From an uncultured Collinsella sp. (GTDB lineage Bacteria > Actinomycetota > Coriobacteriia > Coriobacteriales > Coriobacteriaceae): DNA of 64,000 nt. The position numbers and the translations under genes were made by a program. Shown one piece after another: positions 15,809 through 63,840 of this stretch (its first letter is position 1; every line of letters begins with the position of its first letter). The notes beneath the pieces are model-generated. The model made no database searches and was not told the origin of the DNA. It worked only from the letters and a program-made list of their open reading frames with translations. The DNA lies in NCBI GenBank assembly GCA_900541055.1, contig UQHZ01000005.1, positions 50,504 through 114,503 of the forward strand, written 5' to 3'.

Positions 15809-15815
15809 GATTTGG

Positions 15816-47109: not shown

Positions 47110-47110
47110 C

Positions 47111-48175
47111 ATGCCCGTGTACAAGGACGACGGCACCTTCTACGTGCAGTGCTACTACCGCGACGCCCGCGGCTCGAAGCGCCACAAGACGAAGCGCGGC
47201 TTCTCCTCCGAGGTGGAGGCCGCAGTGTGGGAGAGCCAGTTCAAGAGCCTTAACGGCGGGGCCATGGACATGACGTTCTCCGAGTTCGTCGAGGTGTACG
47301 CCTCCGAGGTGAAGCCGCGCATACGCGAGCACACGTGGATCACCAAGGAGTACATCATCAACGACAAGCTCGTGCCGTTCTTCGGGGACATGCGCATGTG
47401 CGACGTGAGGCCGATCGACGTCATCAGGTGGCAAAACGAGCTCACCGAGCACCGGGACGCCGACGGGAAGCCCTGGGCACCGACGTACCTGCGCACAGTG
47501 AACAACCAGCTCAACGCCATCTTCAACCACGCCGAGCGCTACTACGGCCTCAGCGACAACCCGGTGCGCAGGGTCGACAAGATAGGCTCGAAGAAGGGCG
47601 GCGAGATGCAGTTCTGGACCAAGGACGAGTACCTGAGGTTCAGCGAGGCCGTCATGGACAAGCCTCTCTCATTCCACGCCTTCGAGCTGCTTTACTGGAC
47701 GGGCATACGCTGCGGCGAGCTCCTGGCGCTCACGCCGTCCGACTTCATGCTGGAGAGCTCGCGGCTGCGCATCAACAAGTCGTACCAGAGCCTCAACGGC
47801 GTTGACACCGTGACCGACCCCAAGACGCCCAAGTCCGTGCGCACGATCGTCATGCCCGCCTTCCTGCGCGACGAGATGGCGGACTTCATCGAGATGCGCG
47901 ACGACGTCGCCCCCGACGAGCGCCTGTTCGCCGTGACCAAGCACTTCCTGGCCCACGAGATGGAGCGCGGGTGCAAGGCGTCGGGCGTGAAGCGCATCCG
48001 CATACACGACATACGCCACAGCCATGTGAGCCTGCTGATAGAGATGGGCTTCTCCGCGCTGGCCATCGCCGAGCGCATGGGCCACGAGGCGGTGGACATC
48101 ACCTACCGCTACGCGCACCTGTTCCCCACGAAGCAGGACGAGATGGCCGCCGCGCTCGACGGGGCGAGGGGGTAA
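47111..48175 (+). CDS. tyrosine-type site-specific recombinase / integrase
   Basis: N-terminal arm-binding-like domain (YYRDARGSKRHKTKRGF), core-binding domain, and catalytic residues in TGIRCGELLAL, HDIRHSHVS and GHEAVDITYRYAHL. Confidence 0.9.
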   Translation: MPVYKDDGTFYVQCYYRDARGSKRHKTKRGFSSEVEAAVWESQFKSLNGGAMDMTFSEFVEVYASEVKPRIREHTWITKEYIINDKLVPFFGDMRMCDVRPIDVIRWQNELTEHRDADGKPWAPTYLRTVNNQLNAIFNHAERYYGLSDNPVRRVDKIGSKKGGEMQFWTKDEYLRFSEAVMDKPLSFHAFELLYWTGIRCGELLALTPSDFMLESSRLRINKSYQSLNGVDTVTDPKTPKSVRTIVMPAFLRDEMADFIEMRDDVAPDERLFAVTKHFLAHEMERGCKASGVKRIRIHDIRHSHVSLLIEMGFSALAIAERMGHEAVDITYRYAHLFPTKQDEMAAALDGARG

Positions 48176-48180
48176 GAAGG

Positions 48181-48606: not shown

Positions 48607-48609
48607 GGC

Positions 48610-50313
48610 CTAGCGCCAGACCTCCAACGCCTTGTCCGCAAGCCATTCGGCGCGATCGGCGATATCGCCCTCGTTCCAAGACTCCTTCTCTAGGGCGCCG
48701 GCCATGGTCGCAAGGCCGGCGGCGCAGAGGGCAAGGCCGTCCTTGTATCCCTTTCCCTGCTTCTTGGTGGGCCAATCGGCATCGCGGATGGAGGCGTTGA
48801 GCGAATGCGTGATGATGGCGAGGTTGCCGAGCGTGAGGAGCTTCCGGTCCCTTCGCGTGGCAGCCTCATCGTCGAGGGCTCCCCATTTGTTGCGCCACTT
48901 CTTGGGCATCATGTGCTCGAGGGTGTACTGGTTGAATCCGAGCAGGGCTGTGCTGCTCATGCCTGGGCGAATGGCGCTTTCCAGCAGATAGAGGACGCCC
49001 TTGGACTGGAGGTTGTACAGACACGATTCCTCGAATGCCGCTCGAACCTCGGCGTCGCCGGGCATGTATGTCGTCGCCTCGTCATTGGCTTCGAGAGCCT
49101 TCCTCAGCGCCTCCGCGTCCTTCACCTCGTTCAGGATCAGCGAGGTGAACAGCCTGTTGTAGTTCTTCGTGGTCGCCTGAACCAGCGTTCGGCGGATGAT
49201 GTAGGTCTCAAGCAGGGCGAAGACCTCGGATTCCTCGCCCGAAGACTCCGCGTTCTTGCGAACGTAGAGCACGTACGGGATGAGCGTCGAGTTCTTGAGG
49301 CCGAATATGAGCACGTTCAGGCGCTCGATGCCGGGGGCGGAGGGGATGTCCGCGTCGCAGTAGCCAGGGTCGAACGTGGACTCGAACGCCTCGGCATACG
49401 CCTTCATGTTGTCGAGAATCTCGACCTTGTCGCCGTTGCAGTACCTGCCGATGAAATCCTTGTAGGACTGGAAGAGGTTGGACGTGCGCGAATAGAAGAG
49501 CTTGTCCTCGGTCGTGACGCCACGCCTCTTGTCCTGGACCAGAATCTGGAGGAACGCGTCGAAGAAGAGGTCGACGAGCGTGCGCTTGATGCGCCCGGTA
49601 ACGATCTCCTGCTCCCAATACTCCCTCTTCTCAGCCGTGGGCTCGAAGACGTCTTCCCAGCACTCCTTGAACGCCTGCTCGTTCTCGCGGTTGAAGAAGT
49701 AGTTCTTGAGGAGCTCCGCCGTCGTCAGGCGCACCCCGAGCGAGTTGATGGTGTCGAATATCTGCTGCTCGTCCTCGCCCTCGGTAAGGTCGATGCAGAC
49801 GAACTGGACGTTCGACTTGATCGTGTTCCTGTCGACCCTCTCTGGGTCGATATTCTTGAGGAAGTAGTTGTAGGCGCGGATGATGGCCGAGGTGCCCTCG
49901 ATGGGCTCGCAGTCCGTGGCGCTGACGACCCTCTCGAAATCCTGCCGGTCGTACTTGCCGTGTCTTAGGGCGATTTGGCCGGTCTCCAGGACGAAATCTC
50001 GCTCAAACAAATTGTTGGTGCCGTTTTTTGCACAGAGTGCCTTGAAGAAGATGACCATGGTCGTGAGTCGCTGCTGGCCGTCGATGACGGTGCGAACCTC
50101 GGAGACCTCGGACCAGGTGTTGCCGGAGGAGGCCTGCTTCAGGATGATGGAGCCCAGGAAATAGGGCCGCTTCGAGGCCGTGACGAACTCCATGTCGCCG
50201 AGGAAACGCTCCCATTGCTCTTCTCCCCAGACGTACGCCCTTTGGTAAAAAGGTATTTCGAGCAGGCGCGATCCGTTGAACACGCCGCTTATCGTTGCTT
50301 TTCCTGCATCCAT
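48610..50313 (-). CDS. GmrSD-family type IV restriction endonuclease (DUF262 N-terminal, DUF1524 C-terminal)
   Basis: IPFYQRAYVW and DGQQRLTT (DUF262 ParB-like NTPase motifs). The C-terminal LEHMMPKKW...LGNLAIITHSLNASI is a His-Me/HNH-like DUF1524. Confidence 0.85.
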   Translation of the reverse strand: MDAGKATISGVFNGSRLLEIPFYQRAYVWGEEQWERFLGDMEFVTASKRPYFLGSIILKQASSGNTWSEVSEVRTVIDGQQRLTTMVIFFKALCAKNGTNNLFERDFVLETGQIALRHGKYDRQDFERVVSATDCEPIEGTSAIIRAYNYFLKNIDPERVDRNTIKSNVQFVCIDLTEGEDEQQIFDTINSLGVRLTTAELLKNYFFNRENEQAFKECWEDVFEPTAEKREYWEQEIVTGRIKRTLVDLFFDAFLQILVQDKRRGVTTEDKLFYSRTSNLFQSYKDFIGRYCNGDKVEILDNMKAYAEAFESTFDPGYCDADIPSAPGIERLNVLIFGLKNSTLIPYVLYVRKNAESSGEESEVFALLETYIIRRTLVQATTKNYNRLFTSLILNEVKDAEALRKALEANDEATTYMPGDAEVRAAFEESCLYNLQSKGVLYLLESAIRPGMSSTALLGFNQYTLEHMMPKKWRNKWGALDDEAATRRDRKLLTLGNLAIITHSLNASIRDADWPTKKQGKGYKDGLALCAAGLATMAGALEKESWNEGDIADRAEWLADKALEVWR

Positions 50314-50364
50314 CCTTAAAGCCCTATCTATCCTTTGCGGTTATTGCTGGCGGGGTCAATTTTA

Positions 50365-51492
50365 TCAATACGCTGCTTGACCCTTTAATGTTCCCGGTCC
50401 TTGCCGTCTTCTCCCCAGAAGGTGCTCGAAGATGATGCGCAGGTCCTCGTCATCGAGGTAGCCGCCCTCAAGGCAGCCGCGGTCGATGGCGTCGAGCATC
50501 GTCTGCTCCTTCTCCTTCGAGCGGTCGTAGATCACGGCGTCGAGGGATAGCTCCCTGCCGTCGCGCGTGAACATCTCGTGCATGAATTCGGCACTGTTCG
50601 CTTGACTCCAATCGCGTACCGCGTGCTCGAGCGGGCCGCTTCCCCTCGATATGGCGACATCCCAATGCTCGCAGTTAAGCAGAAGAAGTCGGTTCATGAA
50701 CTCGACGCCCGAAAAACCGAGTCTCGCAAACGGCGGAAATAGAGGGTCATCCGAAAAGACCGCAGCATACTCACTGCTCAACGGCATATACGCGAGATGA
50801 AAATCGTACGAGTCGTCCTCGGGCCCGATGATGAACATAGGCATCGACGTCGTAACGAACCCTGAGCCGACGGGTGCCCTAAGGATGGAGAAGCTCTTCT
50901 CAAAAAAAGCCTTTCGAATACGGTTAACTGGCACAATATCATCGTTGGAGAAGAGCATGGTTGCGGCGGCGGCAAGCTCGACCACCGCTTGGGAATCCCC
51001 GCGCCAATCCGACCAATCGAGCAAGCCGAGCTCATAGGGTGTCAGATGAACGTTTCTGAGCAGCTCTTCGGCAGTCTCGCGTGACCATTTCTTGTCGACG
51101 CGCATACTGATAGGGTGCCGGACGATGATATTTGCTGCCAGCTCGCAAACGGCGGCTTTCCCATCAGAATACCCTTCGTCTTCGCACTGGTCTTCTTTCT
51201 GGCGTTCCAAAAAGCGATTGTAAAACGGCGCAATACGGCTCTCGAACTCAGATAGCTTAACCTCGATGAGATTCTGCGCATAGAATCTGTCTGTCGCATC
51301 GCCTGTTGCATCGGCATGCTTGACTTCATAAAGATCGCGCATGCTGCAAAGGTTCTCGCAATTCGTGCGGAAGAAGGAGCCCTTCTGTCTGCTGTAGGCA
51401 TGGAGCTGCCCGGAGGAATCCGCGAAATGGCGCAGGTAGAACCGCGGCACCCAGTGCTGCTTTCGCGTCATCTTTCCGGGCAGCTTCGACAT
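50365..51492 (-). CDS. DUF4238 domain-containing protein
   Basis: The N-terminal KQHWVPRFYLRHF is the hallmark of DUF4238, from memory. The start codon lies 1 nt after the Res stop. Confidence 0.7.
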   Translation of the reverse strand: MSKLPGKMTRKQHWVPRFYLRHFADSSGQLHAYSRQKGSFFRTNCENLCSMRDLYEVKHADATGDATDRFYAQNLIEVKLSEFESRIAPFYNRFLERQKEDQCEDEGYSDGKAAVCELAANIIVRHPISMRVDKKWSRETAEELLRNVHLTPYELGLLDWSDWRGDSQAVVELAAAATMLFSNDDIVPVNRIRKAFFEKSFSILRAPVGSGFVTTSMPMFIIGPEDDSYDFHLAYMPLSSEYAAVFSDDPLFPPFARLGFSGVEFMNRLLLLNCEHWDVAISRGSGPLEHAVRDWSQANSAEFMHEMFTRDGRELSLDAVIYDRSKEKEQTMLDAIDRGCLEGGYLDDEDLRIIFEHLLGRRRQGPGTLKGQAAY

Positions 51493-51493
51493 C

Positions 51494-54400
51494 CTAAGCC
51501 TTCACCGCCTCGTATTGGTAGGTCGTGCGCACGTTGTAGTGGAAGTCGTTTCCGAGGTCCAGCGCCTCGAAGTGCTTCTTGGCGCAGCCGATCTTGATCT
51601 TCTCCGCGTCGCGCAGGGCGGGCTCGCCGTTCTTGCCGCCCTTGGTCTCGGTCACGAAGTACACGCGGCGCTCGCCGTCGGCCTCCTCGACGTACGCCCA
51701 GTCGGGGTTGTAACTGCCGAGCGGCGTGTCGATCTTGAACGCCGAGGGCAGTTTCGCGAACACGAGAACCTCCTCCTGCTTGTCGAGAGCCTCGGCAAAG
51801 GAGCGCTCGACCCCCGCCGAGTCGTAGACCACGTAGTTGTACAGGCTCTTGCTCGTCATGTCCGGCTTCCACGCGTTCTGCCCAAGGTAGGCTGTGTAGT
51901 CGTCGAGCTCGAGGTCGCGCATGGTGTACCACTCGTCCTCGGGAAGGCGCACGTACTTGATGCCCTGGGCGATGAGGTCGTTCTTCACGCGGTTGATCTT
52001 GTCGCCGACCTGCGCGAGGAAGGTCGCGGGGTCGATCTCGAACTCGTCGAGGCGGCTGCAGCCCTCGAGGATCGCCTTGATGGTGCCGCGGGTGAGCCCG
52101 ACGGCGTCCTGCAGCTCTGCGATCGGGTCGGGAAGGTCGTATTTCACCTTTCCCGAAACGGACACCACGGAGGTGCCCGTGCCCTCGGCGCTCACGCCCG
52201 CGTCGTCGATGCCCAGCGAGGCGCGCTCGCTCGTCACCTGGGGCGGGCGCACGGCGAGCATGCCGTCGACAGCTTCGATGGCATGCTCGATGAGCTTGCC
52301 GGAGTCGACCTCGACCTGGAAGCGCGTGCGCTGGCGGATGCGGTCCCACAGGGCCTGGAACGCAGGGTCGAGCGTGACGTCCTTCTGCAGCTCGACCGAG
52401 ACCTCCTTGGCCTTGTCACGGATCTGGACCCTCTGGGACTTGTGGATGATGATCGCCTCGACCTGCTCCTTGGCAGGCTCGAGCTCGGCGGGGAGCTCGA
52501 CCTTGCCCTCCTCGGCGGCCGCCTTCAGCTCGGGCGTCACCGCGCCCTTGCCGTCGACCATGCCGGTCGCGACGAGGTGGTCGTAGACCTGCTTGGACTT
52601 CTCGTAGCCCAGGCGCTCCTCGACGCCATCATCGCCCTTGACCGTGACCTTCGTGAAGCTCTCCGGAGTGATGACGCCGAACTTGAAGTCCTCAGCCTCA
52701 AGCTCCTTCTGCAGGCCGTTGGCGAAGTCGTCGTAGCTCTCGTTCGCGATGACGGTGAGCACGTTCGCCTCTGGGTCGTACAGGCGCTCGCCATCCTGGT
52801 TCACGCACAGGCGCAGACCGCGGCCGATCTTCTGGCGCTTGGTCAGGTTGTCCTTTGTCTCGACGAGCGTGCAGATCTGGAACACGTTGGGGTTGTCCCA
52901 GCCCTCCTTGAGCGCGGAGTGGCTGAAGACGAAAGAGACGTCCTTGTCCGCGTCCTTGCCGTCCGGGAAGGAGATGAGCGTCTCCTTCTTCTGCATGATG
53001 AGCTCGAAGGCCCCGGCGTCGTCGGCGGTGCCGGCGGCTCCCTTGGAGTCCTTGAACTTGCCCTTCTTGTCCTTGGCGAAGTATCCCTGGTGCACGGCGT
53101 GGGGGTCGCGCACCAGCGGGGCGCCGACGGCTTCGTAGCACTCGAGCCACGTGCCCTTGCCGATCCCCGCCGCCTTTGCGATGCGACGAGGCGCCTTCGA
53201 GTTCAGGGCACCTGCGTACTCCTCCTCAAACATCAGGGCGTACAGGCCGCCGTGGACTTCGGGCTCGTAGACGCGGTATCGGTCGACGCGGTCGATGAAG
53301 AAGAGCGAGAGCACCTTCACGCCGCGCGGCCACAGCTCGAACTGGCGGGCCAGGTGGTCCTCGATGGTGCGGCGGATCTGCGCGCGCTTGACGACCTCCT
53401 CGTTGACGTCGCCCAGCGCCTCGCCGAGCTCGAGCACCTCGCCGTTCTGGAACTCTATGAACTCGTCGCCCACTGCGGCGCCGATGTTGTTGACCACCCA
53501 GCCGCTCTCGTAGTCGCTGTTCTCGCCGCTCTTCTGGTAGAGGTCGTTGCCGGTCTTCACCGTGACGGCCTTGCGCTTCTGCGTGCCGTCGGCCTGGCGC
53601 ACGTCGATGGACACCTTGGCGGAGAACGGGTCGGACTTGACGGACTCGAGCCTCACGTACGCGCCGTTGAGGTTCGCCTCGGCCTTGATCGAGTCCACGC
53701 AGATGCCCTTCACCAGGTGGCGCTCGAAGGCGTCGACCGGCGTGAGGCGGTAGATCATGTTGTAGGCCTGCTTGTGCGTGGCCGAGTAGCGCAGCACGAA
53801 CAGCGGGTTCAGGCTCTTGATGGCGGCCTTGGCCTGCTTGGTGTTGTCGACGCTCTGGGGCTCGTCGATGATGACGACGGGCTTGCAGGCGCTCACGAGC
53901 TCGCGAGGGCTGAAGCCGCCGACGAGCTTCTCGCTGGGACGGTGGAAGAGGTTGCCCTCCTTCGCGGTGCCATCCTTCTCGAGGCCCTTGTTGAACGCGT
54001 CGATGTTGATGACCATGACCTGGATGGAGCTCGACGTGGCGAAGTTACCCACCGGCCCCATGTCCTTCGAGTCGTACACGAAGTAGTCGAGCGGCGTGCG
54101 GTCGTAGAGCGTCTCGAAGTGCCTGCGGGTGGTCTGGAGGCTCTTGAGGACGCCCTCGCGGATGGCCACGCTCGGCACGACGATAACGAACTTGGTGATG
54201 CCGTAGCGGCGGTTTAGCTCGTAGATGGAGCGGATGTAGACGTAGGTCTTGCCGGTGCCGGTCTCCATCTCGACGGTGAAGTCTCGCAGGCGCCCATCGG
54301 TGAGGACGTCGGTTGCCGGGAGGCAGCCCTCCTCCTGCACGGCGTGCAGGTTGTCGAGGAGCTGGCCCGGCGCCACGCGAAGCTCGTTGCCGTGGCCGAC

Positions 54401-54556
54401 CATGAGCTCGCCGATTGCCGTCTGGCCTTTGCGGCCGGAATCGGCGGAGAATACGCTGCCAATAAATTGTTGTCCGCGGAACAGGTCGCAGGTTGCTTCG
54501 ATGGCCTCCAGCTGGTGCTGCTGGTCGGATGAGAACTTGAACTCGAGCGCCGCCAT
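51494..54556 (-). CDS. Type III restriction enzyme Res-like helicase-nuclease
   Basis: Helicase motif I METGTGKTY and motif II VVIIDEPQ. C-terminal PD-(D/E)xK-like YNPDWAYV...FVTETKG. 1020 aa. The start lies 1 nt after the stop of the methyltransferase remnant. Confidence 0.85.
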   Translation of the reverse strand: MAALEFKFSSDQQHQLEAIEATCDLFRGQQFIGSVFSADSGRKGQTAIGELMVGHGNELRVAPGQLLDNLHAVQEEGCLPATDVLTDGRLRDFTVEMETGTGKTYVYIRSIYELNRRYGITKFVIVVPSVAIREGVLKSLQTTRRHFETLYDRTPLDYFVYDSKDMGPVGNFATSSSIQVMVINIDAFNKGLEKDGTAKEGNLFHRPSEKLVGGFSPRELVSACKPVVIIDEPQSVDNTKQAKAAIKSLNPLFVLRYSATHKQAYNMIYRLTPVDAFERHLVKGICVDSIKAEANLNGAYVRLESVKSDPFSAKVSIDVRQADGTQKRKAVTVKTGNDLYQKSGENSDYESGWVVNNIGAAVGDEFIEFQNGEVLELGEALGDVNEEVVKRAQIRRTIEDHLARQFELWPRGVKVLSLFFIDRVDRYRVYEPEVHGGLYALMFEEEYAGALNSKAPRRIAKAAGIGKGTWLECYEAVGAPLVRDPHAVHQGYFAKDKKGKFKDSKGAAGTADDAGAFELIMQKKETLISFPDGKDADKDVSFVFSHSALKEGWDNPNVFQICTLVETKDNLTKRQKIGRGLRLCVNQDGERLYDPEANVLTVIANESYDDFANGLQKELEAEDFKFGVITPESFTKVTVKGDDGVEERLGYEKSKQVYDHLVATGMVDGKGAVTPELKAAAEEGKVELPAELEPAKEQVEAIIIHKSQRVQIRDKAKEVSVELQKDVTLDPAFQALWDRIRQRTRFQVEVDSGKLIEHAIEAVDGMLAVRPPQVTSERASLGIDDAGVSAEGTGTSVVSVSGKVKYDLPDPIAELQDAVGLTRGTIKAILEGCSRLDEFEIDPATFLAQVGDKINRVKNDLIAQGIKYVRLPEDEWYTMRDLELDDYTAYLGQNAWKPDMTSKSLYNYVVYDSAGVERSFAEALDKQEEVLVFAKLPSAFKIDTPLGSYNPDWAYVEEADGERRVYFVTETKGGKNGEPALRDAEKIKIGCAKKHFEALDLGNDFHYNVRTTYQYEAVKA

Positions 54557-54557
54557 G

Positions 54558-55225
54558 CTAGACCGTCCTCAATTCGATCTCACAGCCCATGCGCTCGCCG
54601 GCGTGCTTGAAGATCTGCACGGCGTTGAGCTTGAGGGTGTCGTCGAGGACGGAATCGAGGATGAGAACGCGCCTGGGCTCCATGTCGGCGATGGCCTCGA
54701 GCGCCTCAATGGTGAGGCCTCGGGACATGCAGCAGACGAGCTCGTCGCAAGCGACGGACCAGATGGGATAGCCCGCGGCTTCAGACTTCTCGACGGGCAG
54801 CGTGAGCTCGAGGCCCCATTTGAGCATCATCTCGAAGACGATATCCATATCGGAGCGATCGGGCTTGACCACGTCGAAGAGGAGCTGACCGGGCTCGGGC
54901 TTCTCAATGCCGGACTCATCGAGCTCGAACACACGGAAGCCGATGTCGGGAAGCTGCTTGGGTCCCTCGCCAAGCTTGAGTTGACGGTTGGATTCCTCGA
55001 GCTCGGTTTTGATTTTGTCGCCTGCGCGGCGAATGCGTCCTTCGCCTATGTCGCAGAGAGTCTCATACCCGTCCTTGTAGGCGTCGCGTTTCGGGTCACA
55101 AGGCTCTGGAAGCTGGACAAGGATAAACTGATAGCGATCATCTTTTCCGAGCTCCTGCAGGAACATGGCATGGGCGGTCGATGCTGAGCCTGAGAAAAAA
55201 TCAAGCACAATATCACCCGTGCTTA
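54558..55225 (-). pseudogene. C-terminal remnant of a beta-class (Type III Mod-like) DNA methyltransferase
   Basis: Only the AdoMet motif I region (GDIVLDFFSGSASTAHAM) and the C-terminal about 210 aa remain. No DPPY/NPPY catalytic motif is left. Upstream of about 55,225 the sequence switches to low-GC tet(W)-associated DNA. The 305-aa ORF in the track is a chimera. Confidence 0.7.
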
Positions 55226-55792
55226 GATGCTCATGTACGGTAAGGAAGCAAGCAACCGAAAACAATAGATAGACCGCCAGCACTACACTATTCCGAACCA
55301 AAGACCAAAAGATAAGCATTTTGAGAAAATCTAAACTTTTGGATTTTCCTACAATGCCGACTACGGCGGAATCCCTCCCACTCCTTATATATTTCTTTCT
55401 GTATACATTGAATTTGTATTTAGTAAAATGCAGACAACACCACGGATCGGCTTTTGGCTGGACAATTCCAACCAAACACCGCAGCAGACAGTAGAAACCA
55501 TTCTGAACGTTAGGAAGCCGGTATGATTGTTACATATAAGGGGAAGAAAAATTTCTTTTAGATACTTGTTTTCCTAAAACTGATGTGATATAATAATTCA
55601 AGTCCAGAAAAGGAGTAAAAAATATGCGGCAAGGTATTCTTAAATAAAACTATAATCAAATAGTGGGAACAAAGGATTATGATAGCTCCTTTTGTAGGGG
55701 CTTAGTTTTTTGTACCCAATTTAAGAATACTTTTGCCTTATCAATTTTGACATATCCCCAAAAACAGCACTCACAAACAGGTGTAGCTGTAT

Positions 55793-55828
55793 ATGTGTAT
55801 GTCCGCAAATTATCATCCCCAGTGGTAA
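55793..55828 (+). CDS. putative tet(W) leader peptide (MCMSANYHPQW)
   Basis: An 11-codon ORF whose 3' end overlaps the 5' arm of the attenuator hairpin. This matches the leader-peptide attenuation known for tet(M)/tet(O)-class genes. Confidence 0.4.
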   Translation: MCMSANYHPQW

Positions 55829-55855
55829 AAGTATTTTACTGCTGGGGATTTTTAT
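55817..55855 (+). terminator. transcriptional attenuator upstream of tet(W)
   Basis: CCCCAGTGGTAAAAG..TTTTACTGCTGGGG hairpin followed by ATTTTTAT, 33 nt before the tet(W) ATG. Confidence 0.65.
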
Positions 55856-55887
55856 GCCCTTCGGGGCAGTAAAGGGAGGACAATCAC

Positions 55888-57807
55888 ATGAAAATAATCA
55901 ATATTGGAATTCTTGCCCATGTAGACGCTGGAAAGACGACCTTGACGGAGAGCCTGCTATATGCCAGCGGAGCCATTTCAGAACCGGGGAGCGTCGAAAA
56001 AGGGACAACGAGGACGGACACCATGTTTTTGGAGCGGCAGCGTGGGATTACCATTCAAGCGGCAGTCACTTCCTTCCAGTGGCACAGATGTAAAGTCAAC
56101 ATTGTGGATACGCCCGGCCACATGGATTTTTTGGCGGAGGTGTACCGCTCTTTGGCTGTTTTAGATGGGGCCATCTTGGTGATCTCCGCTAAAGATGGCG
56201 TGCAGGCCCAGACCCGTATTCTGTTCCATGCCCTGCGGAAAATGAACATTCCCACCGTTATCTTTATCAACAAGATCGACCAGGCTGGCGTTGATTTGCA
56301 GAGCGTGGTTCAGTCTGTTCGGGATAAGCTCTCCGCCGATATTATCATCAAGCAGACGGTGTCGCTGTCCCCGGAAATAGTCCTGGAGGAAAATACCGAC
56401 ATAGAAGCATGGGATGCGGTCATCGAAAATAACGATGAATTATTGGAAAAGTATATCGCAGGAGAACCAATCAGCCGGGAAAAACTTGCGCGGGAGGAAC
56501 AGCAGCGGGTTCAAGACGCCTCCCTGTTCCCAGTCTATCATGGCAGCGCCAAAAATGGCCTTGGCATTCAACCGTTGATGGATGCGGTGACAGGGCTGTT
56601 CCAACCGATTGGGGAACAGGGGAGCGCCGCCCTATGCGGCAGCGTTTTCAAGGTGGAGTATACAGATTGCGGCCAGCGGCGTGTCTATCTACGGCTATAC
56701 AGCGGAACGCTGCGCCTGCGGGATACGGTGGCCCTGGCCGGGAGAGAAAAGCTGAAAATCACAGAGATGCGTATTCCATCCAAAGGGGAAATTGTTCGGA
56801 CAGACACCGCTTATCCGGGTGAAATTGTTATCCTTCCCAGCGACAGCGTGAGGTTAAACGATGTATTAGGGGACCCAACCCGGCTCCCTCGTAAAAGGTG
56901 GCGTGAGGACCCCCTCCCCATGCTGCGGACGTCGATTGCGCCGAAAACGGCAGCGCAAAGAGAACGGCTGCTGGACGCTCTTACGCAACTTGCGGATACT
57001 GACCCGCTTTTGCGCTGCGAGGTGGATTCCATCACCCATGAGATCATTCTTTCTTTTTTGGGCCGGGTGCAGTTGGAGGTTGTTTCCGCTTTGCTGTCGG
57101 AAAAATACAAGCTTGAAACAGTGGTAAAGGAACCCTCCGTCATTTATATGGAGCGGCCGCTCAAAGCAGCCAGCCACACCATCCATATCGAGGTGCCGCC
57201 CAACCCGTTTTGGGCATCCATAGGACTGTCTGTTACACCACTCTCGCTTGGCTCCGGTGTACAATACGAGAGCCGGGTTTCGCTGGGATACTTGAACCAG
57301 AGTTTTCAAAACGCTGTCAGGGATGGTATCCGTTACGGGCTGGAGCAGGGCTTGTTCGGCTGGAACGTAACGGACTGTAAGATTTGCTTTGAATACGGGC
57401 TTTATTACAGTCCGGTCAGCACGCCGGCGGACTTCCGCTCATTGGCCCCGATTGTATTGGAACAGGCATTGAAGGAATCGGGGACGCAGCTGCTGGAACC
57501 TTATCTCTCCTTCATCCTCTATGCGCCCCAGGAATACCTTTCCAGGGCTTATCATGATGCACCGAAATACTGTGCCACCATCGAAACGGCCCAGGTAAAA
57601 AAGGATGAAGTTGTCTTTACTGGCGAGATTCCCGCCCGCTGTATACAGGCATACCGTACTGATCTGGCCTTTTACACCAACGGGCGGAGCGTATGCCTTA
57701 CAGAGCTGAAAGGATATCAGGCCGCTGTCGGTCAGCCGGTCATCCAGCCCCGCCGTCCAAACAGCCGCCTGGACAAGGTGCGCCATATGTTTCAGAAGGT
57801 AATGTAA
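55888..57807 (+). CDS. tet(W): tetracycline resistance ribosomal protection protein Tet(W)
   Basis: 639 aa, starting [81 protein letters not shown]. The length and many diagnostic residues match Tet(W) rather than Tet(O) or Tet(M) as I remember them. Confidence 0.95.
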
Positions 57808-57857
57808 AGATACATAATCGTCAAGACGGCAACAATCAGAAGTTATGGAGGGTAACA

Positions 57858-58037
57858 ATGGAATATAGTAAGGAAGATTTAATGGAAGCAAAAAAGCAAA
57901 TTTGGGGAGTGGGAGAGAACATGGGAACAGAGGAAAGTAAAAAAATCTGGGAGGAGAACGCACAATTTTGGGATAATGCAATGGGTGACGAATCTAATGA
58001 ATTTCACAGAGAGGTAGTGCGTCCCAAAGTAACAGAA
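57858..58037 (+). pseudogene. N-terminal fragment of a SAM-dependent methyltransferase-like ORF that commonly trails tet(W)
   Basis: ...MGTEESKKIWEENAQFWDNAMGDESNEFHREVVRPKVTE is followed by an abrupt switch to high-GC antisense DUF4391 sequence. It is a fragment only. Confidence 0.4.
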
Positions 58038-58810
58038 CGGCCATTGCAGATCTCCTTTATCTCATCGGCGACCGCCCTCAGGCGTCGCTCCTCTTCCTTC
58101 ATTTCCATCCTCAGCTTCGCGGACTCGTTGAGCGTTATGTCCTTCGACCGCCGCTGCTCCTTCAGCCGCTTGACGGAGGCTCCCATCTCATCGTAGCGCG
58201 ACGTGAGGGCGATCAGCTTTTCCCGGTCTCGAGCGGGGCATACGGGGTAGAACCCCAGGCCGCCAATCGCGCGGGACAGCGCTACGGTGCGCGACAGGTC
58301 GACCAGGTACTCCCAGAGGTCGCCCTGCGAGAGCCGCCCGAATGCCAGCGCGCCTAGGAAGTCCGCGTATTCTGAACGGCCAGGATCGAACGCGCCCGTC
58401 GACTCGATTCGGTCGACGACCGTCGCGCCCTGCTCGGCCTGGCTCCTCCGCGTGAGGGCGACCGATATGCACGCGCAGCCGCCCGCCTCGACCAGGAGCA
58501 CCGTCGGGTTCGGGAAGCACTTGTGCACGAGCTCCGCCACCTCGGCCACCGCCATGGTCCCGGCTGTCATCTCGCAACGGAGGAAGACGACGCTCTGCAC
58601 GTTGCGCTCGTCGTCCTCGTACGGCGGGATGCGCGTCGTGGACTTCTGGATCGTGGCGAAGTGCTCGAGGCGCGCGACCTTGTCGAGCCTCTTCTGCTCG
58701 GTCTTGGTGAGCATGGCCTGCTTGACGAGCACCGTCTTGGGAATGCGGCGGCATCCCGCGAGCGCCGCTTCGGGCAGGCGCAGGATTCCGTTCCAGTCGA
58801 TGCCGCTCAT
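58004..58810 (-). CDS. DUF4391 domain-containing protein (last ~11 codons supplied by the tet(W) cassette junction)
   Basis: Its start, ATGA, overlaps the SNF2 stop. The size and position between the SNF2 helicase and the methyltransferase match the usual DUF4391 context. The family was assigned from context and memory, not from an HMM. Confidence 0.6.
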   Translation of the reverse strand: MSGIDWNGILRLPEAALAGCRRIPKTVLVKQAMLTKTEQKRLDKVARLEHFATIQKSTTRIPPYEDDERNVQSVVFLRCEMTAGTMAVAEVAELVHKCFPNPTVLLVEAGGCACISVALTRRSQAEQGATVVDRIESTGAFDPGRSEYADFLGALAFGRLSQGDLWEYLVDLSRTVALSRAIGGLGFYPVCPARDREKLIALTSRYDEMGASVKRLKEQRRSKDITLNESAKLRMEMKEEERRLRAVADEIKEICNGRSVTLGRTTSL

Positions 58811-61800
58811 CGCAGCACCGCGAAACATACCAACGAGTAGTCGTTGAAGCCCATGACGGTGCCGCTGCCGACCTCTCCCAGGCTGAACAGGCTCTCGATG
58901 CCTTTGTCCTGCTGCGTTCCGGTGATGGCCGCAACGACATCGTCAAGCAGGTCGGTGTAGGCGTCCATCCTCGTCCCGTCGCGGGTCTCGCGGTTGAACT
59001 CGCGGCACAGCTTAGCGATGGGCTCGGGATGCCCAGAGCAGACGGCGCGCATGATGTCGAGCGCCGGCTTGGGCTGGGTGTGCTTCGTCATGACCTCGCC
59101 GTCGGCCGACACGTACACCACGTAGTACGGGAAGACAGGGTTCGTGTCCCTGGGATCGTTGCCCTCGTCGTTCTGCTTGAGGCAGAAGACCACGCCTGGC
59201 TTCACGTCGCTGCGAAGCTCGTCGGGGATGGGGGCCACGGCGTGCAGTCCCGCCGGCGAGTTCTCCAACGCGCCGGGATGCTCCTTGGCGTAGCGCTGGA
59301 GCTCCACGCGGAAGTCGTCGAAGGCGAAATCCGTGATCGAGATGCCGCCCGAGATGTCCTCGAGGTCGAGCACCTCGCTCTTGAGCTGCTGGAGCTGCCG
59401 GCGACGGTACTTGAGGTCGTTCATCTCTCCATTGCCCTTGGCCTCCAGCACGTTCTCCTCGCCGGTTGCCGACGCGTCGAGCAGCGCCATGCGCCCCTTC
59501 ACGCGGCCCTCGAGCTGGATGTACTCGTCGAGCGCGATGTCCGGCCAGAAGTTGACCAGCTGGATCTGGGAGTTCTTCGATCCCAGGCGGTCGATGCGGC
59601 CGAAGCGCTGGATGATGCGCACGGGGTTCCAGTGGATGTCGTAGTTCACCAGGCAGTCGCAGTCCTGCAGGTTCTGGCCCTCGGAGATGCAGTCCGTCGC
59701 GAAGACGACGTCGATCTCGCCGAGCTCCCGCTGGCTCTCCGGCAGCTCCTTTGAGACGGGAGAGAACCTCGCGAGGATGTTCTCGAAGGTGGTCCTGGGA
59801 AGCTTCAGCGAGTAGGTCCGGTTGGAGCTGCCCGCCACCTCGGCGCACTCGATTCCGAGCTCGCGCTTCAGCCAGGGCGCCAGCTGCTCGAAAAGGTACG
59901 CCGTCGTGTCGGCGAACGCGCTGAACACCAGCACCTTGCGGTTGCCGGGGTTGTACGGCTCGCTGACCTTGCCCGCGATGAAGTCGCGCAGCTTCACGAG
60001 CTTGGCATCGCGCTCGGGCGTCACCGCGTCGGCATAGGTTAGCAGGGCCCGGAGCACCTGGATGTCGAAGTCGAGGTCCTGGCCCAGGCGCAGGGCGTCG
60101 ACGTCTCGCAGGTCGACTCGCACCTTGCCGCCGGCCTCGAACTCCTCGGCATCGTCGTCGTCGAACCCGTCCTCGAGGCCCTCGGTGCCGTAGGCGACCC
60201 CCGACGCGTCGGCGTCGAGCCTCGCGCGCAGGTCGACGCAGCCGTCGAGGATTCGTCGCAGCGTGATGCGGAAGCTGTTCACGGAGGACTCCATGCGCTT
60301 GAGGACGTTGACGCGCATGAGGTTGGCCACCGCCGTCGTGCGGTGGACCTGGCTCTCGAAGTCCTTGCCCCACGTGTCCCCGTAGCGGTCCTCGTACTTG
60401 CGGCGCTGGTCGGCGCGCACGTAGGAGAGCACCTGGTACTGGGCGAACGTGAGCTGGGCGATCATGTCGTTGAGCACGGCAATCGGCGGCAGCTCGCCTT
60501 CTAGGTCGATGGGCGTCTGAAACGACAGGGGCGGCCGGCGCGCCGGGAAGGTACCGCTCGCGGCGCCGTAGTACTTCGTGATGTGCTTGCGGCTGCGCGC
60601 GATGGTCAGCACGTCGAGCAGCTTGAAGTAGTCGGCGTTCACCGCGTTCACGAAGCTCTCGGTCGTGCGCTCGGAGTCGGAGAGCTTGCTCCACTCGTTG
60701 AACCTCTGCTGGGCGACGCGCGTCACGTGGGTGATCGACGGGATGCCGTCGGTATCGGCGAGGTACGCGTCGTCTCCCTCGGTGATGAGCTCGATCTGGT
60801 TTCGCAGGTCGAGCAGGCGGTTGTTCACCGGGGTGGCAGAGAGCATGAGCACCTTCGTGCGCTGGCCCGACTTGATGACGTCCTCGATGAGGCGCGTGTA
60901 GCGGTCGGTCTTGTCCGCGTCGGTGCTCTTGTTCCTGAAGTTGTGGCTCTCGTCGATGACGAGGAGGTCGAAGTGGCCCCAGCGCAGGTGCTCGAGGTCC
61001 ACCTCGCCGCTCATGCCGTGGTAGCGCGACAGGTCGGTGTGGTTGAGCACCGTGTAGCTGAAGCGGTCGTCGGCCAGCGGGTTGCGGTCGTCGTTGTCCT
61101 GCGTCCACAGGGTCCAGTTGTCCCGCAGGCGCTTCGGGCACAGCACGAGGATGCGGTCGTTGCGCTCCTGGTAGTACTTCATGACGGCGAGCGCCTCGTA
61201 GGTCTTGCCCAGGCCCACCGAGTCGGCGATGATGCAGCCCTTGTACTTCTCCAGCTTGCGGATGGCGCCCACGACGGCGTCCTTCTGGAAGTCGTAGAGC
61301 TTGCTCCAGACCACGGACTCCTCGAACTTGAGGCCGGGGCGGATGCCGTTGTCCTCGTCGTCCTCCATGAAGTCGCGGAACAGGTGGTACAGGGTCAGGA
61401 AGTAGATGAACTCGGGCGGGTTCTCGCGGTAGAGCGTCTCGACCTGGGCGGCCACCTGCGCGGTGACCTCCTCGACCATGGCGGGGTTGTCCCAGACCGA
61501 CTCGAACATCATCTTGAGGCCGACGGCCTCGGTCGCGTTCTCGAAATGGCTCACGCAGGTCACGGTTCCCGGACGGCGCTCGTAGCCGAGGCCCTCCTGC
61601 GTGAAGTTCGCGGCGGCGCCCATGAAGGCGTGGTCGTCGCCGGATGGGTTCTCCACCACGTAGGTGCCGCCCGGCTGGATGGCGCCGGACGTCTTGGCGG
61701 ACTTGAAGACGCCCTTCTCGCGGATCCACTCGGCGCATTCGCGGGCGAGCGCGCGTTGGTTTAGGTTGTTGCGCAGCGTGAGCTCGAGCCCCGAGCCGCC

Positions 61801-62052
61801 GACGCCGACCTCGCGCGCGCGGCGGGCTACCTCGAACTCGCGCGGCTCCTTCGAGTCGGCCATGCGCTTGATGAAGGTGGGCTCGCTGAACAGGAAGCGC
61901 ACCTCGTCGACCTTGGAGAGCTCCTCTTTGAGCTCCCCGTAGGCGAACACGGTGAAATACGAGCTGATTATCGACAGCTTCGCGCCGTCGTCGATGGATT
62001 CGCCGAGGGCGTCTCCCAGGCGCTCCGCGCCGACGTTGCTTAGCGACTTCAC
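58807..62052 (-). CDS. SNF2-family helicase with an additional N-terminal domain of about 250 aa
   Basis: Motifs: ADSVGLGKTYEALA (I), VIDESHNFRN (II), LSATPVNN (III) and QRFGRIDRLGS (VI). The identity of the N-terminal domain (LSIISSYFTVFAYGELKEEL, possibly PLD-like) is uncertain. GTG start. Confidence 0.85.
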   Translation of the reverse strand: MKSLSNVGAERLGDALGESIDDGAKLSIISSYFTVFAYGELKEELSKVDEVRFLFSEPTFIKRMADSKEPREFEVARRAREVGVGGSGLELTLRNNLNQRALARECAEWIREKGVFKSAKTSGAIQPGGTYVVENPSGDDHAFMGAAANFTQEGLGYERRPGTVTCVSHFENATEAVGLKMMFESVWDNPAMVEEVTAQVAAQVETLYRENPPEFIYFLTLYHLFRDFMEDDEDNGIRPGLKFEESVVWSKLYDFQKDAVVGAIRKLEKYKGCIIADSVGLGKTYEALAVMKYYQERNDRILVLCPKRLRDNWTLWTQDNDDRNPLADDRFSYTVLNHTDLSRYHGMSGEVDLEHLRWGHFDLLVIDESHNFRNKSTDADKTDRYTRLIEDVIKSGQRTKVLMLSATPVNNRLLDLRNQIELITEGDDAYLADTDGIPSITHVTRVAQQRFNEWSKLSDSERTTESFVNAVNADYFKLLDVLTIARSRKHITKYYGAASGTFPARRPPLSFQTPIDLEGELPPIAVLNDMIAQLTFAQYQVLSYVRADQRRKYEDRYGDTWGKDFESQVHRTTAVANLMRVNVLKRMESSVNSFRITLRRILDGCVDLRARLDADASGVAYGTEGLEDGFDDDDAEEFEAGGKVRVDLRDVDALRLGQDLDFDIQVLRALLTYADAVTPERDAKLVKLRDFIAGKVSEPYNPGNRKVLVFSAFADTTAYLFEQLAPWLKRELGIECAEVAGSSNRTYSLKLPRTTFENILARFSPVSKELPESQRELGEIDVVFATDCISEGQNLQDCDCLVNYDIHWNPVRIIQRFGRIDRLGSKNSQIQLVNFWPDIALDEYIQLEGRVKGRMALLDASATGEENVLEAKGNGEMNDLKYRRRQLQQLKSEVLDLEDISGGISITDFAFDDFRVELQRYAKEHPGALENSPAGLHAVAPIPDELRSDVKPGVVFCLKQNDEGNDPRDTNPVFPYYVVYVSADGEVMTKHTQPKPALDIMRAVCSGHPEPIAKLCREFNRETRDGTRMDAYTDLLDDVVAAITGTQQDKGIESLFSLGEVGSGTVMGFNDYSLVCFAVLR

Positions 62053-62056
62053 GCCT

Positions 62057-62281
62057 CTATGCCCCCTTCTTCGCGAGCTCTTCGATCATGCAGGTGCGCA
62101 CGAAGGCGGAGAAGCTCATGCCCCGCAGGGCCGCCTCCTCCTTCGCCGCGTCGCGCAGGGTGTCGGGGATGCGCAGGGTCACGGAGACCTGGTCGCCGTC
62201 CACCAGGAAGCTTCTGATCTCGGTCTCGTCGGGATTGCTCTTGATGAGCTCCTTGTAGCTGTCGGGCATCTGCGCTCCCAT
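62057..62281 (-). CDS. ribbon-helix-helix (CopG-like) protein, first gene of the defence operon
   Basis: 74 aa. VSVTLRIPDTLRDAAKEEAALRGMSFSAFVRTCMIEEL has the beta-strand then two-helix RHH pattern. The stop lies 4 nt before the helicase start. Confidence 0.6.
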   Translation of the reverse strand: MGAQMPDSYKELIKSNPDETEIRSFLVDGDQVSVTLRIPDTLRDAAKEEAALRGMSFSAFVRTCMIEELAKKGA

Positions 62282-62437
62282 CGCTCGAAATGCAATACAA
62301 ATGCGTTTGCAGCATTATAACGCGGCGGCACGCGGCGGCACTGGGAATGCGAGGACGGCCGATGCCCAGGCTTTATATGAGCGCGGACGGCGATGGACGC
62401 CCTGATAGGGCTTGGATGGCCGCTTTCGTTCGGGTCC

Positions 62438-63630: not shown

Positions 63631-63683
63631 GCGGCGCGCCCGGCCCCGGGCTCCCGGGGCCGGGTCTCCCCGAATCCGGCCCC

Positions 63684-63765: not shown

Positions 63766-63840
63766 CTCCGAGACTCGGGGCGCGCCGGACCGGATGCGGC
63801 GAGGCGCGCCCCACGCTACACGCTAGAGAGGACGCGACCC

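What the first reader, a model, noticed from the sequence alone, without database searches (positions are those of the whole stretch)
50365..62281. Tightly coupled operon of RHH, SNF2 helicase, DUF4391, methyltransferase, Type III Res-like protein and DUF4238: candidate uncharacterised defence system
Six minus-strand genes are packed with 1-4 nt gaps or overlaps. The RHH stop lies 4 nt before the SNF2 GTG. The SNF2 stop overlaps the DUF4391 ATG as ATGA. The Mod remnant stop lies 1 nt before the Res ATG, and the Res stop lies 1 nt before the DUF4238 ATG. This is the signature of one translationally coupled machine. The Mod-plus-Res pair alone would be a Type III R-M system. The 1081-aa SNF2 ATPase with an extra N-terminal domain, DUF4391 and DUF4238 are not part of canonical Type III systems, and I know of no mechanism assigned to this combination. 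It differs from DISARM (no DrmA/DrmB/DrmC) and from BREX (no PglZ/BrxC). It rides on a mobile element next to a type IV nuclease, which is typical defence-island context.
Basis: partly seen in the sequence, partly recalled or inferred. Interest (0 to 1): 0.8.

Follow-up and report, generated by a model that had tools for sequence, protein, structure and literature searches.

The report
Extended Type III restriction system, broken
This is a copy, knocked out by a tetracycline-resistance insertion, of a widespread but unstudied four-gene restriction-modification system in which an ordinary Type III methylase/nuclease pair always travels with an extra SNF2 motor protein and a small protein of unknown fold (DUF4391).

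Summary
The gene junctions are exactly as described, and the HMMs support every family call.

- **The operon here is dead.** A 2.8-kb tet(W) block on the opposite strand replaces the first ~400 codons of Mod, plus an optional 264-aa gene. No methyltransferase remains.
- **The conserved unit is four genes, not six:** SNF2 ATPase, DUF4391, Mod, Res. In 76 related genome loci, SNF2 was present in 66/66 informative loci, Mod in 58/58 and Res in 32/34. The same cassette sits on plasmids of Paraburkholderia, Vibrio, E. coli, Bacillus cereus, Lactococcus, Mycolicibacterium and an archaeon.
- **DUF4238 and the RHH are exchangeable extras.**
  - DUF4238 follows Res in only 11/35 loci. Elsewhere that position holds GmrSD or ABC-type ATPases. 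DUF4238 is already a published single-gene anti-phage system.
  - The identical RHH also heads an unrelated R-M operon.

Mod and Res are a distinct branch of Type III R-M. SNF2 plus DUF4391 (confident model, no fold match) is an uncharacterised add-on. I found no paper on its function.

Verdict: a new variant of a known kind, of moderate interest. It is best studied in an intact homologue, for example on E. coli plasmids.

The parts
62057..62281 (-). Small RHH/CopG-like protein (74 aa). It is the probable operon regulator and a portable leader gene, not specific to this system.
   Evidence: NCBIfam YlcI_YnfO_N at 36.4 bits against a cut-off of 30; weak DUF6290/CopG_antitoxin hits. The exact protein also sits upstream of a DUF4357/HsdM/HsdS operon in L098. 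No similarity to the small upstream gene in Paraburkholderia.
58807..62052 (-). SNF2-family ATPase (1081 aa, GTG start). It has an unassigned N-terminal domain of ~245 aa and a C-terminal region of ~200 aa. It is a core gene of the cassette.
   Evidence: Pfam SNF2-rel_dom, ResIII and Helicase_C. Motifs GLGKT280, DESH367, SATP405 and QRFGRIDRLG815 are intact. The best PADLOC hit is C3a139 'HKD+Snf2' at 4.6e-112, over residues 171-1050 only. DrmD scores 154 bits against a cut-off of 610. The N-terminal domain has no Pfam, PADLOC or PDB sequence hit and no conserved HxK. SNF2 lies upstream of DUF4391 in 66/66 loci.
58004..58810 (-). DUF4391 protein. Its ATG overlaps the SNF2 stop as ATGA. The last ~10 residues are foreign, because homology to intact relatives ends at 58034. 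It is a core gene of the cassette.
   Evidence: Pfam DUF4391 at 1.9e-26. Junction. Homology break. AlphaFold model with pLDDT 96.8. No fold match in PDB or BFVD. The family holds 462 clusters at 50% identity.
55229..58033 (.). Foreign low-GC block carrying tet(W) (CDS 55888-57807, + strand) and its leader. It replaces Mod codons 1-399 and the optional 264-aa gene of the intact element.
   Evidence: GC of 0.52 against ~0.65 in the flanks. EF-G-like domains. 98.7% identity to tet(W) regions of plasmids, for example C. acnes pTZC1. Replacement mapped against the intact locus L033.
54558..55228 (-). 3' remnant of the Type III mod gene. It corresponds to residues 400-622 of the intact 622-aa Mod. 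It keeps motif I (FSGS) but has no DPPY motif and no target-recognition domain.
   Evidence: 99.6% identical to L033 Mod residues 400-622. 75% identical to residues 442-657 of the Actinomyces Mod. Motif check. PADLOC MTase_III profile positions 406-614 of 621.
51494..54556 (-). Type III-like Res subunit (1020 aa): an SF2 ATPase with a C-terminal PD-ExK nuclease. It is a core gene of the cassette.
   Evidence: Pfam ResIII plus RE_endonuc (5.2e-35). PADLOC REase_III at 3.9e-300. NCBIfam PRK15483 at 342 bits, below its cut-off of 564. Motifs TGTGKT99, DEPQ231 and PDW951...ETK970.
50365..51492 (-). DUF4238 protein (375 aa). It is an accessory gene, probably an independent defence gene coupled to the end of the operon.
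   Evidence: Pfam DUF4238 at 83 bits. Present directly after Res in 11/35 loci. Alleles are 60-100% identical, or the gene is absent. GC3 of 0.68. A single DUF4238 protein protects against T7 (PMC9122126).
48610..50313 (-). Neighbouring GmrSD-family type IV restriction enzyme. It is not part of the operon.
   Evidence: Pfam GmrSD_N plus GmrSD_C; PADLOC hits.
47111..48175 (+). Tyrosine integrase at the end of the mobile element, next to a GMP-synthase gene.
   Evidence: Pfam Phage_integrase, SAM_3 and Arm-DNA-bind_4. The neighbouring genes in L001 include a NikA-like gene and GMP synthase. Relaxase, ParA/ParB and sortase genes lie on the other side in L099-L101.

Best explanation
The locus is an inactivated copy of a conserved four-gene, Type III-derived restriction-modification cassette: SNF2 ATPase, DUF4391, Mod, Res. 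It is carried as cargo on a conjugative or integrative element inserted beside a GMP-synthase gene.

**How intact relatives most likely work.**
- Shown by homology and motifs: Mod (a beta-class N6-adenine methyltransferase with a swappable target-recognition domain) marks host DNA and supplies sequence recognition. Res (SF2 ATPase plus PD-ExK nuclease) cuts unmodified DNA, as in EcoP15I-type enzymes.
- Inferred: the SNF2 protein is a dsDNA translocase with no recognisable nuclease motif. With its obligate partner DUF4391, it forms a second ATP-driven module that acts together with Mod-Res and is not an independent nuclease. Its likely job is to move along or remodel target DNA, so as to extend, license or protect Type III restriction.

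**What happened here.** A tet(W) block replaced the 5' two-thirds of mod. Methylation is lost, and restriction is lost with it, because Type III Res depends on Mod to recognise DNA.

**Accessory genes.** DUF4238 (a known single-gene defence), the RHH regulator and the GmrSD enzyme are interchangeable neighbours, not subunits.
For: **Core synteny.** In 76 genome loci, SNF2 was present in 66/66 informative loci, Mod in 58/58 and Res in 32/34. DUF4391 identity in these loci ranges from 100% down to 42%.

**Distant relatives.**
- Metagenomic contigs encoding DUF4391 proteins 26-29% identical to the window's carry the full cassette (L087, L094/L095); three shorter contigs (L089, L092, L093) show the parts they span.
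- A Paraburkholderia plasmid (DUF4391 28% identical) also carries the cassette.

**Reciprocal test starting from Res.**
- Full-length Res relatives (33-43% identity) are preceded by helicase-DUF4391-MTase on plasmids of an archaeon, Vibrio, B. cereus, L. lactis, E. coli and Mycolicibacterium.
- In Listeria a 185-aa hypothetical gene takes the DUF4391 position.
- EcoPI-type Res proteins form a separate group, matching at 29-30% over residues 6-636 only.

**Coupling.** Start and stop codons overlap in the window and in intact relatives.

**Intact motifs.** The ATPase and nuclease motifs of SNF2 and Res are intact, and intact Mods carry DPPY.

**Mosaicism typical of Type III.** SNF2 and Res are 92-99% identical at nucleotide level between relatives, while the middle of Mod drops to ~45-55%.

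**Natural knock-out argument.**
- tet(W)-disrupted copies occur in 14 of the related loci (13 of them 99% identical in DUF4391); where the flanks are long enough, SNF2, DUF4391 and Res are still full-length. They come from Collinsella, Olsenella, Bifidobacterium, Arcanobacterium, Varibaculum, Eggerthella, Slackia and Atopobium.
- So SNF2, DUF4391 and Res are tolerated without methylation.

**Accessory status of DUF4238 and RHH.**
Against: - No experiment or paper links SNF2 or DUF4391 to restriction. The joint-machine idea rests on gene order alone.
- Mod-Res of this branch occur without SNF2/DUF4391 on a Staphylococcus hominis plasmid, and with only a DUF4391 stub on an L. plantarum plasmid. 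The add-on is therefore dispensable for keeping the R-M pair.
- One orphan DUF4391 exists.
- The SNF2 N-terminal domain could not be assigned. The full-length model is poor (pLDDT 57.9), so a cryptic nuclease cannot be excluded.
- Tolerance of the Mod-less copies could also come from polar loss of Res expression.
Confidence: 0.6

Rival explanations
1. There are two independent defence systems side by side. One is an ordinary Type III R-M pair. The other is a separate two-gene SNF2-DUF4391 system with its own sensing and effector activity. They are linked only because defence genes cluster and are co-selected.
For: - Mod-Res of this branch exist alone on a S. hominis plasmid.
- One orphan DUF4391 exists.
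- SNF2 ATPases are effectors in several unrelated defence systems, as shown by PADLOC hits to DrmD, ZorD, HmaA and DpdE.
- The slots around the cassette clearly collect unrelated defence genes.
Against: - No SNF2-DUF4391 pair without Mod-Res turned up: every locus with enough flank has Mod downstream, and the only losses seen are of Res or of SNF2.
- The gene order is fixed across Bacteria and an archaeon, with overlapping stop and start codons.
- The Res branch itself tracks the presence of SNF2-DUF4391.
- No nuclease or other effector motif was found in SNF2 or DUF4391.
Confidence: 0.2
2. All six genes (RHH, SNF2, DUF4391, Mod, Res, DUF4238) form one obligate, translationally coupled machine.
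For: - Gaps of 1-4 nt or overlaps at every junction.
- DUF4238 follows Res at a 1-nt spacing throughout the closest clade, including Actinomyces graevenitzii.
Against: - DUF4238 is absent from 24 of 35 informative loci and from all distant cassettes. GmrSD or ABC-type ATPases take its place, or the position is empty.
- Its alleles are only ~61% identical between operons whose SNF2 and Res are 97% identical.
- Its GC3 is 0.68 against 0.93 for the core genes.
- It works alone against T7.
- The identical RHH heads a different R-M operon.
Confidence: 0.07
3. SNF2-DUF4391 is a control or housekeeping module and plays no part in attacking foreign DNA. For example, it might clear Mod-Res complexes from host DNA, prevent self-restriction after replication or on entry into a new host, or tune methylation.
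For: - SNF2 enzymes such as RapA, the closest solved relative (E 5e-9), recycle stalled protein-DNA complexes.
- The module sits upstream of mod, so it is made first.
- Mod-Res can exist without it.
Against: - Canonical Type III systems manage without such a module.
- Mod-less copies keep intact SNF2 and DUF4391 reading frames in many genera. This may only reflect how recent the insertion is.
- No direct evidence points either way.
Confidence: 0.13

Closest known systems
Type III restriction-modification systems (EcoP1I, EcoP15I)
   Same: - A mod gene followed by a res gene in one operon.
- Mod is a beta-class N6-adenine methyltransferase, with DPPY ahead of FxGxG and a variable middle region.
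- Res is an SF2 ATPase with a C-terminal PD-ExK nuclease.
- PGAP names the E. coli homologue of this Res 'type III restriction-modification system endonuclease'.
   Different: - Res belongs to a separate branch. It is only 29-30% identical to EcoPI-type Res, over residues 6-636 alone. It scores 342 bits against the NCBIfam cut-off of 564.
- This branch is nearly always preceded by an SNF2 ATPase and DUF4391, which canonical Type III systems lack.
- In this window Mod is truncated, so the pair is non-functional.
DISARM class 1 (DrmD SNF2 helicase + DrmMI adenine methylase + DrmA/B/C)
   Same: An SNF2-family ATPase is encoded next to an N6-adenine methyltransferase in a defence operon. DrmD models are among the better hits (PADLOC 1.1e-37; NCBIfam 154 bits).
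   Different: - No DrmA, DrmB (DUF1998) or DrmC (PLD) is present.
- The DrmD hits cover only parts of the protein and fall far below the cut-off of 610 bits.
- The nuclease partner here is a Type III Res.
- DUF4391 is not a DISARM component.
Single-gene DUF4238 anti-phage system (Rousset et al. 2022, P2/P4 hotspots)
   Same: The last gene of the operon is a DUF4238-domain protein (83 bits). A lone DUF4238 protein gave strong resistance to T7.
   Different: Here it is fused onto the end of a Type III-like operon with a 1-nt spacer. Its sequence relationship to the tested E. coli protein was not measured. PADLOC 2.0 has no model that hits it.
Other SNF2-containing defence systems (Zorya ZorD, Hma HmaA, Dpd DpdE, lactococcal AbiR)
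   Same: Each uses an SNF2-type dsDNA translocase in defence. Weak to moderate HMM hits support the link. ZorD appears among the fold matches.
   Different: Those proteins either carry their own nuclease domain (HmaA C-terminal PD-(D/E)xK, PMC11232893; ZorD) or work with other partners. None is paired with DUF4391 or with a Type III Mod/Res pair.
'HKD+Snf2' accessory cluster C3a139 of type III CRISPR-Cas loci (Shah et al. 2018)
   Same: It is the best PADLOC model for the SNF2 protein (4.6e-112).
   Different: - The match begins at residue 171 and skips the model's N-terminal (HKD) part.
- No HxK motif is conserved in the N-terminal domain here.
- No CRISPR-Cas genes lie nearby.

Membership tests
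Type III R-M | Mod: an N6-adenine methyltransferase with the catalytic DPPY motif, a target-recognition domain and the AdoMet motif FxGxG. | tested here: not met
   The window copy keeps only residues 400-622. It has FSGS but no DPPY and no target-recognition domain. Intact relatives (L033, L004) have DPPY at residue 126 and FSGS at 411 or 446, so the family feature is met there.
Type III R-M | Res: an SF2 helicase-like ATPase fused to a C-terminal PD-(D/E)xK nuclease. | tested here: met
   Pfam ResIII plus RE_endonuc. PADLOC REase_III at 3.9e-300, covering residues 5-1009. Motifs TGTGKT, DEPQ and PDW...ETK.
Type III R-M | mod lies immediately upstream of res in one transcription unit. | tested here: met
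   A 1-nt spacer in the window and in intact loci.
Type III R-M | Membership of the curated EcoPI/EcoP15I Res equivalog (NCBIfam PRK15483). | tested here: not met
   342 bits against a cut-off of 564. tblastn splits the plasmid Res proteins into this branch and the EcoPI-type branch.
Type III R-M | ATP-dependent cleavage that needs two inversely oriented unmethylated sites, with hemimethylation of one strand. | not testable with these tools
   This needs biochemistry and a methylome from an intact homologue.
DISARM | The core DrmA helicase, DrmB (DUF1998) and DrmC (PLD). | tested here: not met
   No operon protein matches DrmB or DrmC. The only DrmA hit is a weak secondary match of the SNF2 core (3.7e-22). 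DrmD reaches only 154 bits against a cut-off of 610.
BREX | PglZ phosphatase and the BrxC ATPase. | tested here: not met
   None of the operon proteins carries these domains. The SNF2 core gives only partial BrxHI/BrxHII helicase hits.
DUF4238 single-gene defence (Rousset 2022) | A protein consisting of a DUF4238 domain. | tested here: met
   Pfam DUF4238 at 83 bits against a cut-off of 27, covering residues 11-277 of 375.
DUF4238 single-gene defence (Rousset 2022) | Confers phage resistance on its own. | not testable with these tools
   Shown only for the E. coli P2-hotspot protein.
SNF2-DUF4391-Mod-Res cassette (unnamed, defined here) | An SNF2 ATPase of ~1080 aa, immediately followed by DUF4391, then a Type III-like Mod, then Res, all on the same strand. 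| tested here: met
   The order is present in the window, with Mod truncated. It was confirmed in 66/66 (SNF2), 58/58 (Mod) and 32/34 (Res) related loci, and on plasmids from four bacterial phyla and one archaeon.

The most novel reading that the evidence does not exclude
SNF2 plus DUF4391 turns a Type III enzyme into a distinct four-component class of restriction machine. A dedicated dsDNA translocase and an adaptor of new fold would change how target sites communicate. Possible outcomes are cleavage that does not need head-to-head sites, removal of anti-restriction proteins, or control of self-restriction. If so, the cassette would deserve its own R-M or defence-system type, found in both Bacteria and Archaea.
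Probability: 0.3. Interest if true: 0.7.

Novelty: new variant of a known kind. Interest (0 to 1): 0.5.

Why it matters
If SNF2 and DUF4391 do work with Mod-Res, this is an overlooked family of restriction systems that annotation pipelines currently split in two. The pipelines call one half "Type III R-M" and the other half "helicase-related protein" plus "DUF4391". The family occurs in gut Actinomycetota, dairy lactococci, Listeria, B. cereus, Vibrio, E. coli plasmids and an archaeon.

It would assign a function to a DUF with a confidently predicted, unmatched fold. It would also add a case to the recurring but poorly understood use of SNF2 motors in prokaryotic immunity.

Separately, the window documents tet(W) knocking out a restriction barrier. 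The element that carries it now occurs in many genera of Actinomycetota. This is relevant to how resistance elements travel.

Tried and rejected
1. **SNF2 N-terminal domain as a PLD/HKD nuclease.** This is rejected as a catalytic HKD. The candidate histidine (H140) is not conserved, and no Pfam, PADLOC or PDB sequence hit was found. The fold itself remains unresolved.
   - The full-length model was poor (pLDDT 57.9).
   - Its Foldseek hits were only SF2 cores.
2. **Fold assignment of DUF4391.** The model is excellent (pLDDT 96.8). Nothing matched in PDB (best E 0.11), in BFVD (best E 0.027) or by profile against PDB sequences.
3. **Broad alignment-based scan for DUF4391 loci.** Two alignments were too diverse for the pattern search. 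A narrower one worked.
4. **Literature searches.**
   - DUF4391, PF14335 and IPR025503 gave nothing functional.
   - The one DUF4391 'hit' in a phage-structure preprint looks like a slip for DUF7941.
   - The lactococcal R-M survey treats its Type III systems as R plus M only.
   - The LlaFI paper is not held.
5. **Hma and DISARM as identities.** Both are rejected on architecture and on scores.
6. **Co-variation of DUF4391 with the Mod specificity domain.** This is not supported. In L035 the middle of Mod is swapped while DUF4391 stays 97-100% identical.
7. **Promoter and terminator scan.** It gave nothing above background.

Full report
**Observation.** All four junctions are as described:
- RHH TAG, then 4 nt, then the SNF2 GTG.
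- The SNF2 TGA overlaps the DUF4391 ATG as ATGA.
- Mod TAG, then 1 nt, then the Res ATG.
- Res TAG, then 1 nt, then the DUF4238 ATG.

The HMMs support every family call. The description underplays one thing: the operon is split. Bases 55229-58033 form a low-GC block (0.52 against ~0.65). The block carries tet(W) on the opposite strand and is 98.7% identical to plasmid tet(W) regions.

**What happened to Mod.** An uninterrupted version of the same element exists in a Collinsella MAG (L033). Its gene order is RHH, SNF2, DUF4391, a 264-aa gene with no family, Mod (622 aa), Res, DUF4238, GmrSD, integrase.
- Window 63998-58034 aligns to L033 4816-10777.
- Window 55228-47225 aligns to L033 12771-20774.
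- Both stretches are 98-99% identical.

So the tet(W) block replaces 1,993 bp: the 264-aa gene and Mod codons 1-399. The remnant keeps motif I (FSGS) but lacks the catalytic DPPY and the recognition domain. No other piece of Mod lies in the window.

Most other tet(W)-bearing relatives still hold the 264-aa gene and the Mod N-terminal part. These come from Olsenella, Bifidobacterium asteroides, Arcanobacterium, Varibaculum, Eggerthella, Atopobium and Slackia. The window therefore carries a further deletion. The system here cannot methylate. By the known dependence of Type III Res on Mod, it cannot restrict either.

**What the conserved unit is.** I collected 76 genome loci encoding relatives of DUF4391, at 42-100% identity, and scored their flanks.

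| Gene and position | Informative loci with the gene |
|---|---|
| SNF2 upstream of DUF4391 | 66/66 |
| Mod downstream of DUF4391 | 58/58 |
| Res further downstream | 32/34 |
| DUF4238 directly after Res | 11/35 |

More distant DUF4391 proteins (23-29% identical to the window's) show the following contexts:
- The full four-gene order on metagenomic contigs L087 and L094/L095; shorter contigs (L089, L092, L093) show the parts they span.
- The same order on a Paraburkholderia plasmid.
- One orphan DUF4391.
- One decayed copy.

I then ran the reciprocal test, searching plasmids with Res.
- The hits split into a full-length group (33-43% identity) and the EcoPI-type group. The EcoPI group matches at 29-30% identity over residues 6-636 only.
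- In the full-length group, six of nine sampled records had helicase-DUF4391-MTase-Res: Methanomethylovorans (an archaeon), Vibrio, B. cereus, L. lactis, E. coli and Mycolicibacterium.
- Listeria has the same layout, with a 185-aa gene in the DUF4391 position.
- L. plantarum has a DUF4391 stub plus Mod-Res.
- S. hominis has Mod-Res only.
- Ten of 5,426 complete E. coli genomes carry the cassette, mostly on plasmids.

The core is therefore SNF2-DUF4391-Mod-Res, and the Res branch tracks the add-on.

**What is accessory.**
- *DUF4238.*
  - It follows Res only in the clade closest to the window.
  - Its alleles are ~61% identical between operons whose SNF2 and Res are 97% identical.
  - Its GC3 is 0.68 against 0.93-0.94.
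  - In other relatives the same position holds GmrSD, AAA_21/AAA_15-type ATPases, an AAA_13 protein, or nothing.
  - A single DUF4238 protein is published as sufficient for T7 resistance (PMC9122126).
- *RHH.* It is not universal. The identical 74-aa protein heads an unrelated DUF4357/HsdM/HsdS operon in another genome. It behaves as a portable regulator.
- *The 264-aa gene.* It is present or absent among near-identical operons.

**Mosaic structure.** Nucleotide identity profiles show SNF2 and Res at 92-99% between relatives, while the middle of Mod falls to ~45-55%. This is the classic pattern of specificity-domain exchange in Type III mod genes. A second swap zone spans the C-terminal half of DUF4391 and the 264-aa gene. 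DUF4391 does not co-vary with the Mod specificity region (L035).

**The unknown proteins.**
- *DUF4391.* The AlphaFold model is very confident (pLDDT 96.8). It shows an N-terminal alpha/beta domain followed by three long helices. It has no significant match in PDB or BFVD and none by sequence profile. P13, H96, P100, P102, S116 and R121 are nearly invariant across 79 diverse members.
- *SNF2.* All ATPase motifs are intact. Its nearest solved relatives are RapA and the chromatin remodellers. Its ~245-aa N-terminal domain matches nothing and has no conserved HxK. The full-length model was too poor to assign that domain.

**Mechanism.**
- Shown by homology and motifs: the Mod-Res pair is a Type III-like methylase/ATPase-nuclease.
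- Inferred: SNF2, a dsDNA translocase lacking any visible nuclease, and DUF4391 act with Mod-Res as a second motor/adaptor module.
- Grounds for the inference:
  - invariant gene order across two domains of life;
  - overlapping codons;
  - linkage of the add-on to this Res branch;
  - no SNF2-DUF4391 pair found without Mod-Res.
- The widely spread Mod-less copies, which keep intact SNF2, DUF4391 and Res, show that these three genes are tolerated without methylation. That fits target recognition residing in Mod.
- Against the inference, Mod-Res can persist alone, and no experiment exists. I give the joint-machine reading about 0.6. The precise role (site communication, remodelling or self-protection) is open.

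**Comparison with known systems.**
- It is not DISARM: there is no DrmA/B/C, and DrmD scores 154 against a cut-off of 610.
- It is not BREX, and not Hma.
- PADLOC's best SNF2 model is a type III CRISPR accessory cluster, not a defined system.
- I found no paper on DUF4391 function.
- A recent lactococcal R-M survey counts such loci simply as Type III R plus M.
- I cannot exclude that REBASE or subscription literature has noted the association.

**Verdict.** This is a new variant of a known kind: Type III R-M extended by an SNF2-DUF4391 module. The window's copy is a tet(W)-inactivated relic on a conjugative/integrative element. Interest is moderate (0.5). The family-level question is real and readily testable in E. 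coli homologues.

Noticed in passing
window 55229-58033; also L016, L019, L022, L024, L025, L027, L036, L043: The same tet(W) insertion into the Type III mod gene occurs in elements from at least eight genera of Actinomycetota: Collinsella, Olsenella, Bifidobacterium asteroides, Arcanobacterium, Varibaculum, Eggerthella, Slackia and Atopobium. The deletion end-points on the tet(W) 3' side differ between them. The window has the largest loss. The resistance gene has knocked out the element's own restriction barrier.
   Followed up: partly
L098 10001-10225 (NCBI GCA_000156215.1, DS995474.1): The exact 74-aa RHH of the window sits directly upstream of a different R-M operon (DUF4357, a 919-aa HsdM-like methylase, HsdS genes and a Type I HsdR nearby). 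This suggests a portable regulator or leader cassette shared between R-M systems.
   Followed up: partly
L033 10767-11561 (absent from the window): A 264-aa gene with no Pfam family lies between DUF4391 and Mod in some operons and is missing from near-identical ones (L004, L039). Other relatives have different small inserts, for example a 139-aa gene between Mod and Res in L087 and a second methyltransferase in L. lactis.
   Followed up: partly
L056, L062, L064, L065, L070, L071, L076 (just downstream of Res): The position held by DUF4238 in the window is a variable slot. In relatives it holds GmrSD, AAA_21/AAA_15 ABC-type ATPases (one with a PHP domain) or an AAA_13 protein.
   Followed up: partly
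window ~46000-64000; L099-L101 1-10000: The operon is cargo on a mobile element that ends at a tyrosine integrase beside a GMP-synthase gene. Beyond the RHH, the element carries ParA/ParB, a NikA-like protein, a relaxase, a sortase and a SpaA/TED-type surface protein.
   Followed up: partly
L108 1256-10584 (E. coli plasmid CP057895.1); hits H80-H87: An intact SNF2-DUF4391-Mod-Res cassette is present in 10 of 5,426 complete E. coli genomes, nine times on plasmids. These are convenient experimental models.
   Followed up: yes
window 62300-62345 (minus strand, upstream of RHH): A tandem 11-bp direct repeat (GTGCCGCCGCG x2) sits next to a TTATAAT box and a short TGCAA...TTGCA inverted repeat just upstream of the RHH start. 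This may be the promoter and operator.
   Followed up: no
window 14001-16000: A dip in GC content (0.527 against ~0.63 in the flanks) lies just after two very long + strand ORFs (1163 and 1494 aa). It was not examined.
   Followed up: no
bioRxiv 10.64898/2026.04.21.720040: The only recent text mentioning 'DUF4391' (phage Goslar/PhiKZ gp127) appears to mean DUF7941. It is not evidence about this family.
   Followed up: yes
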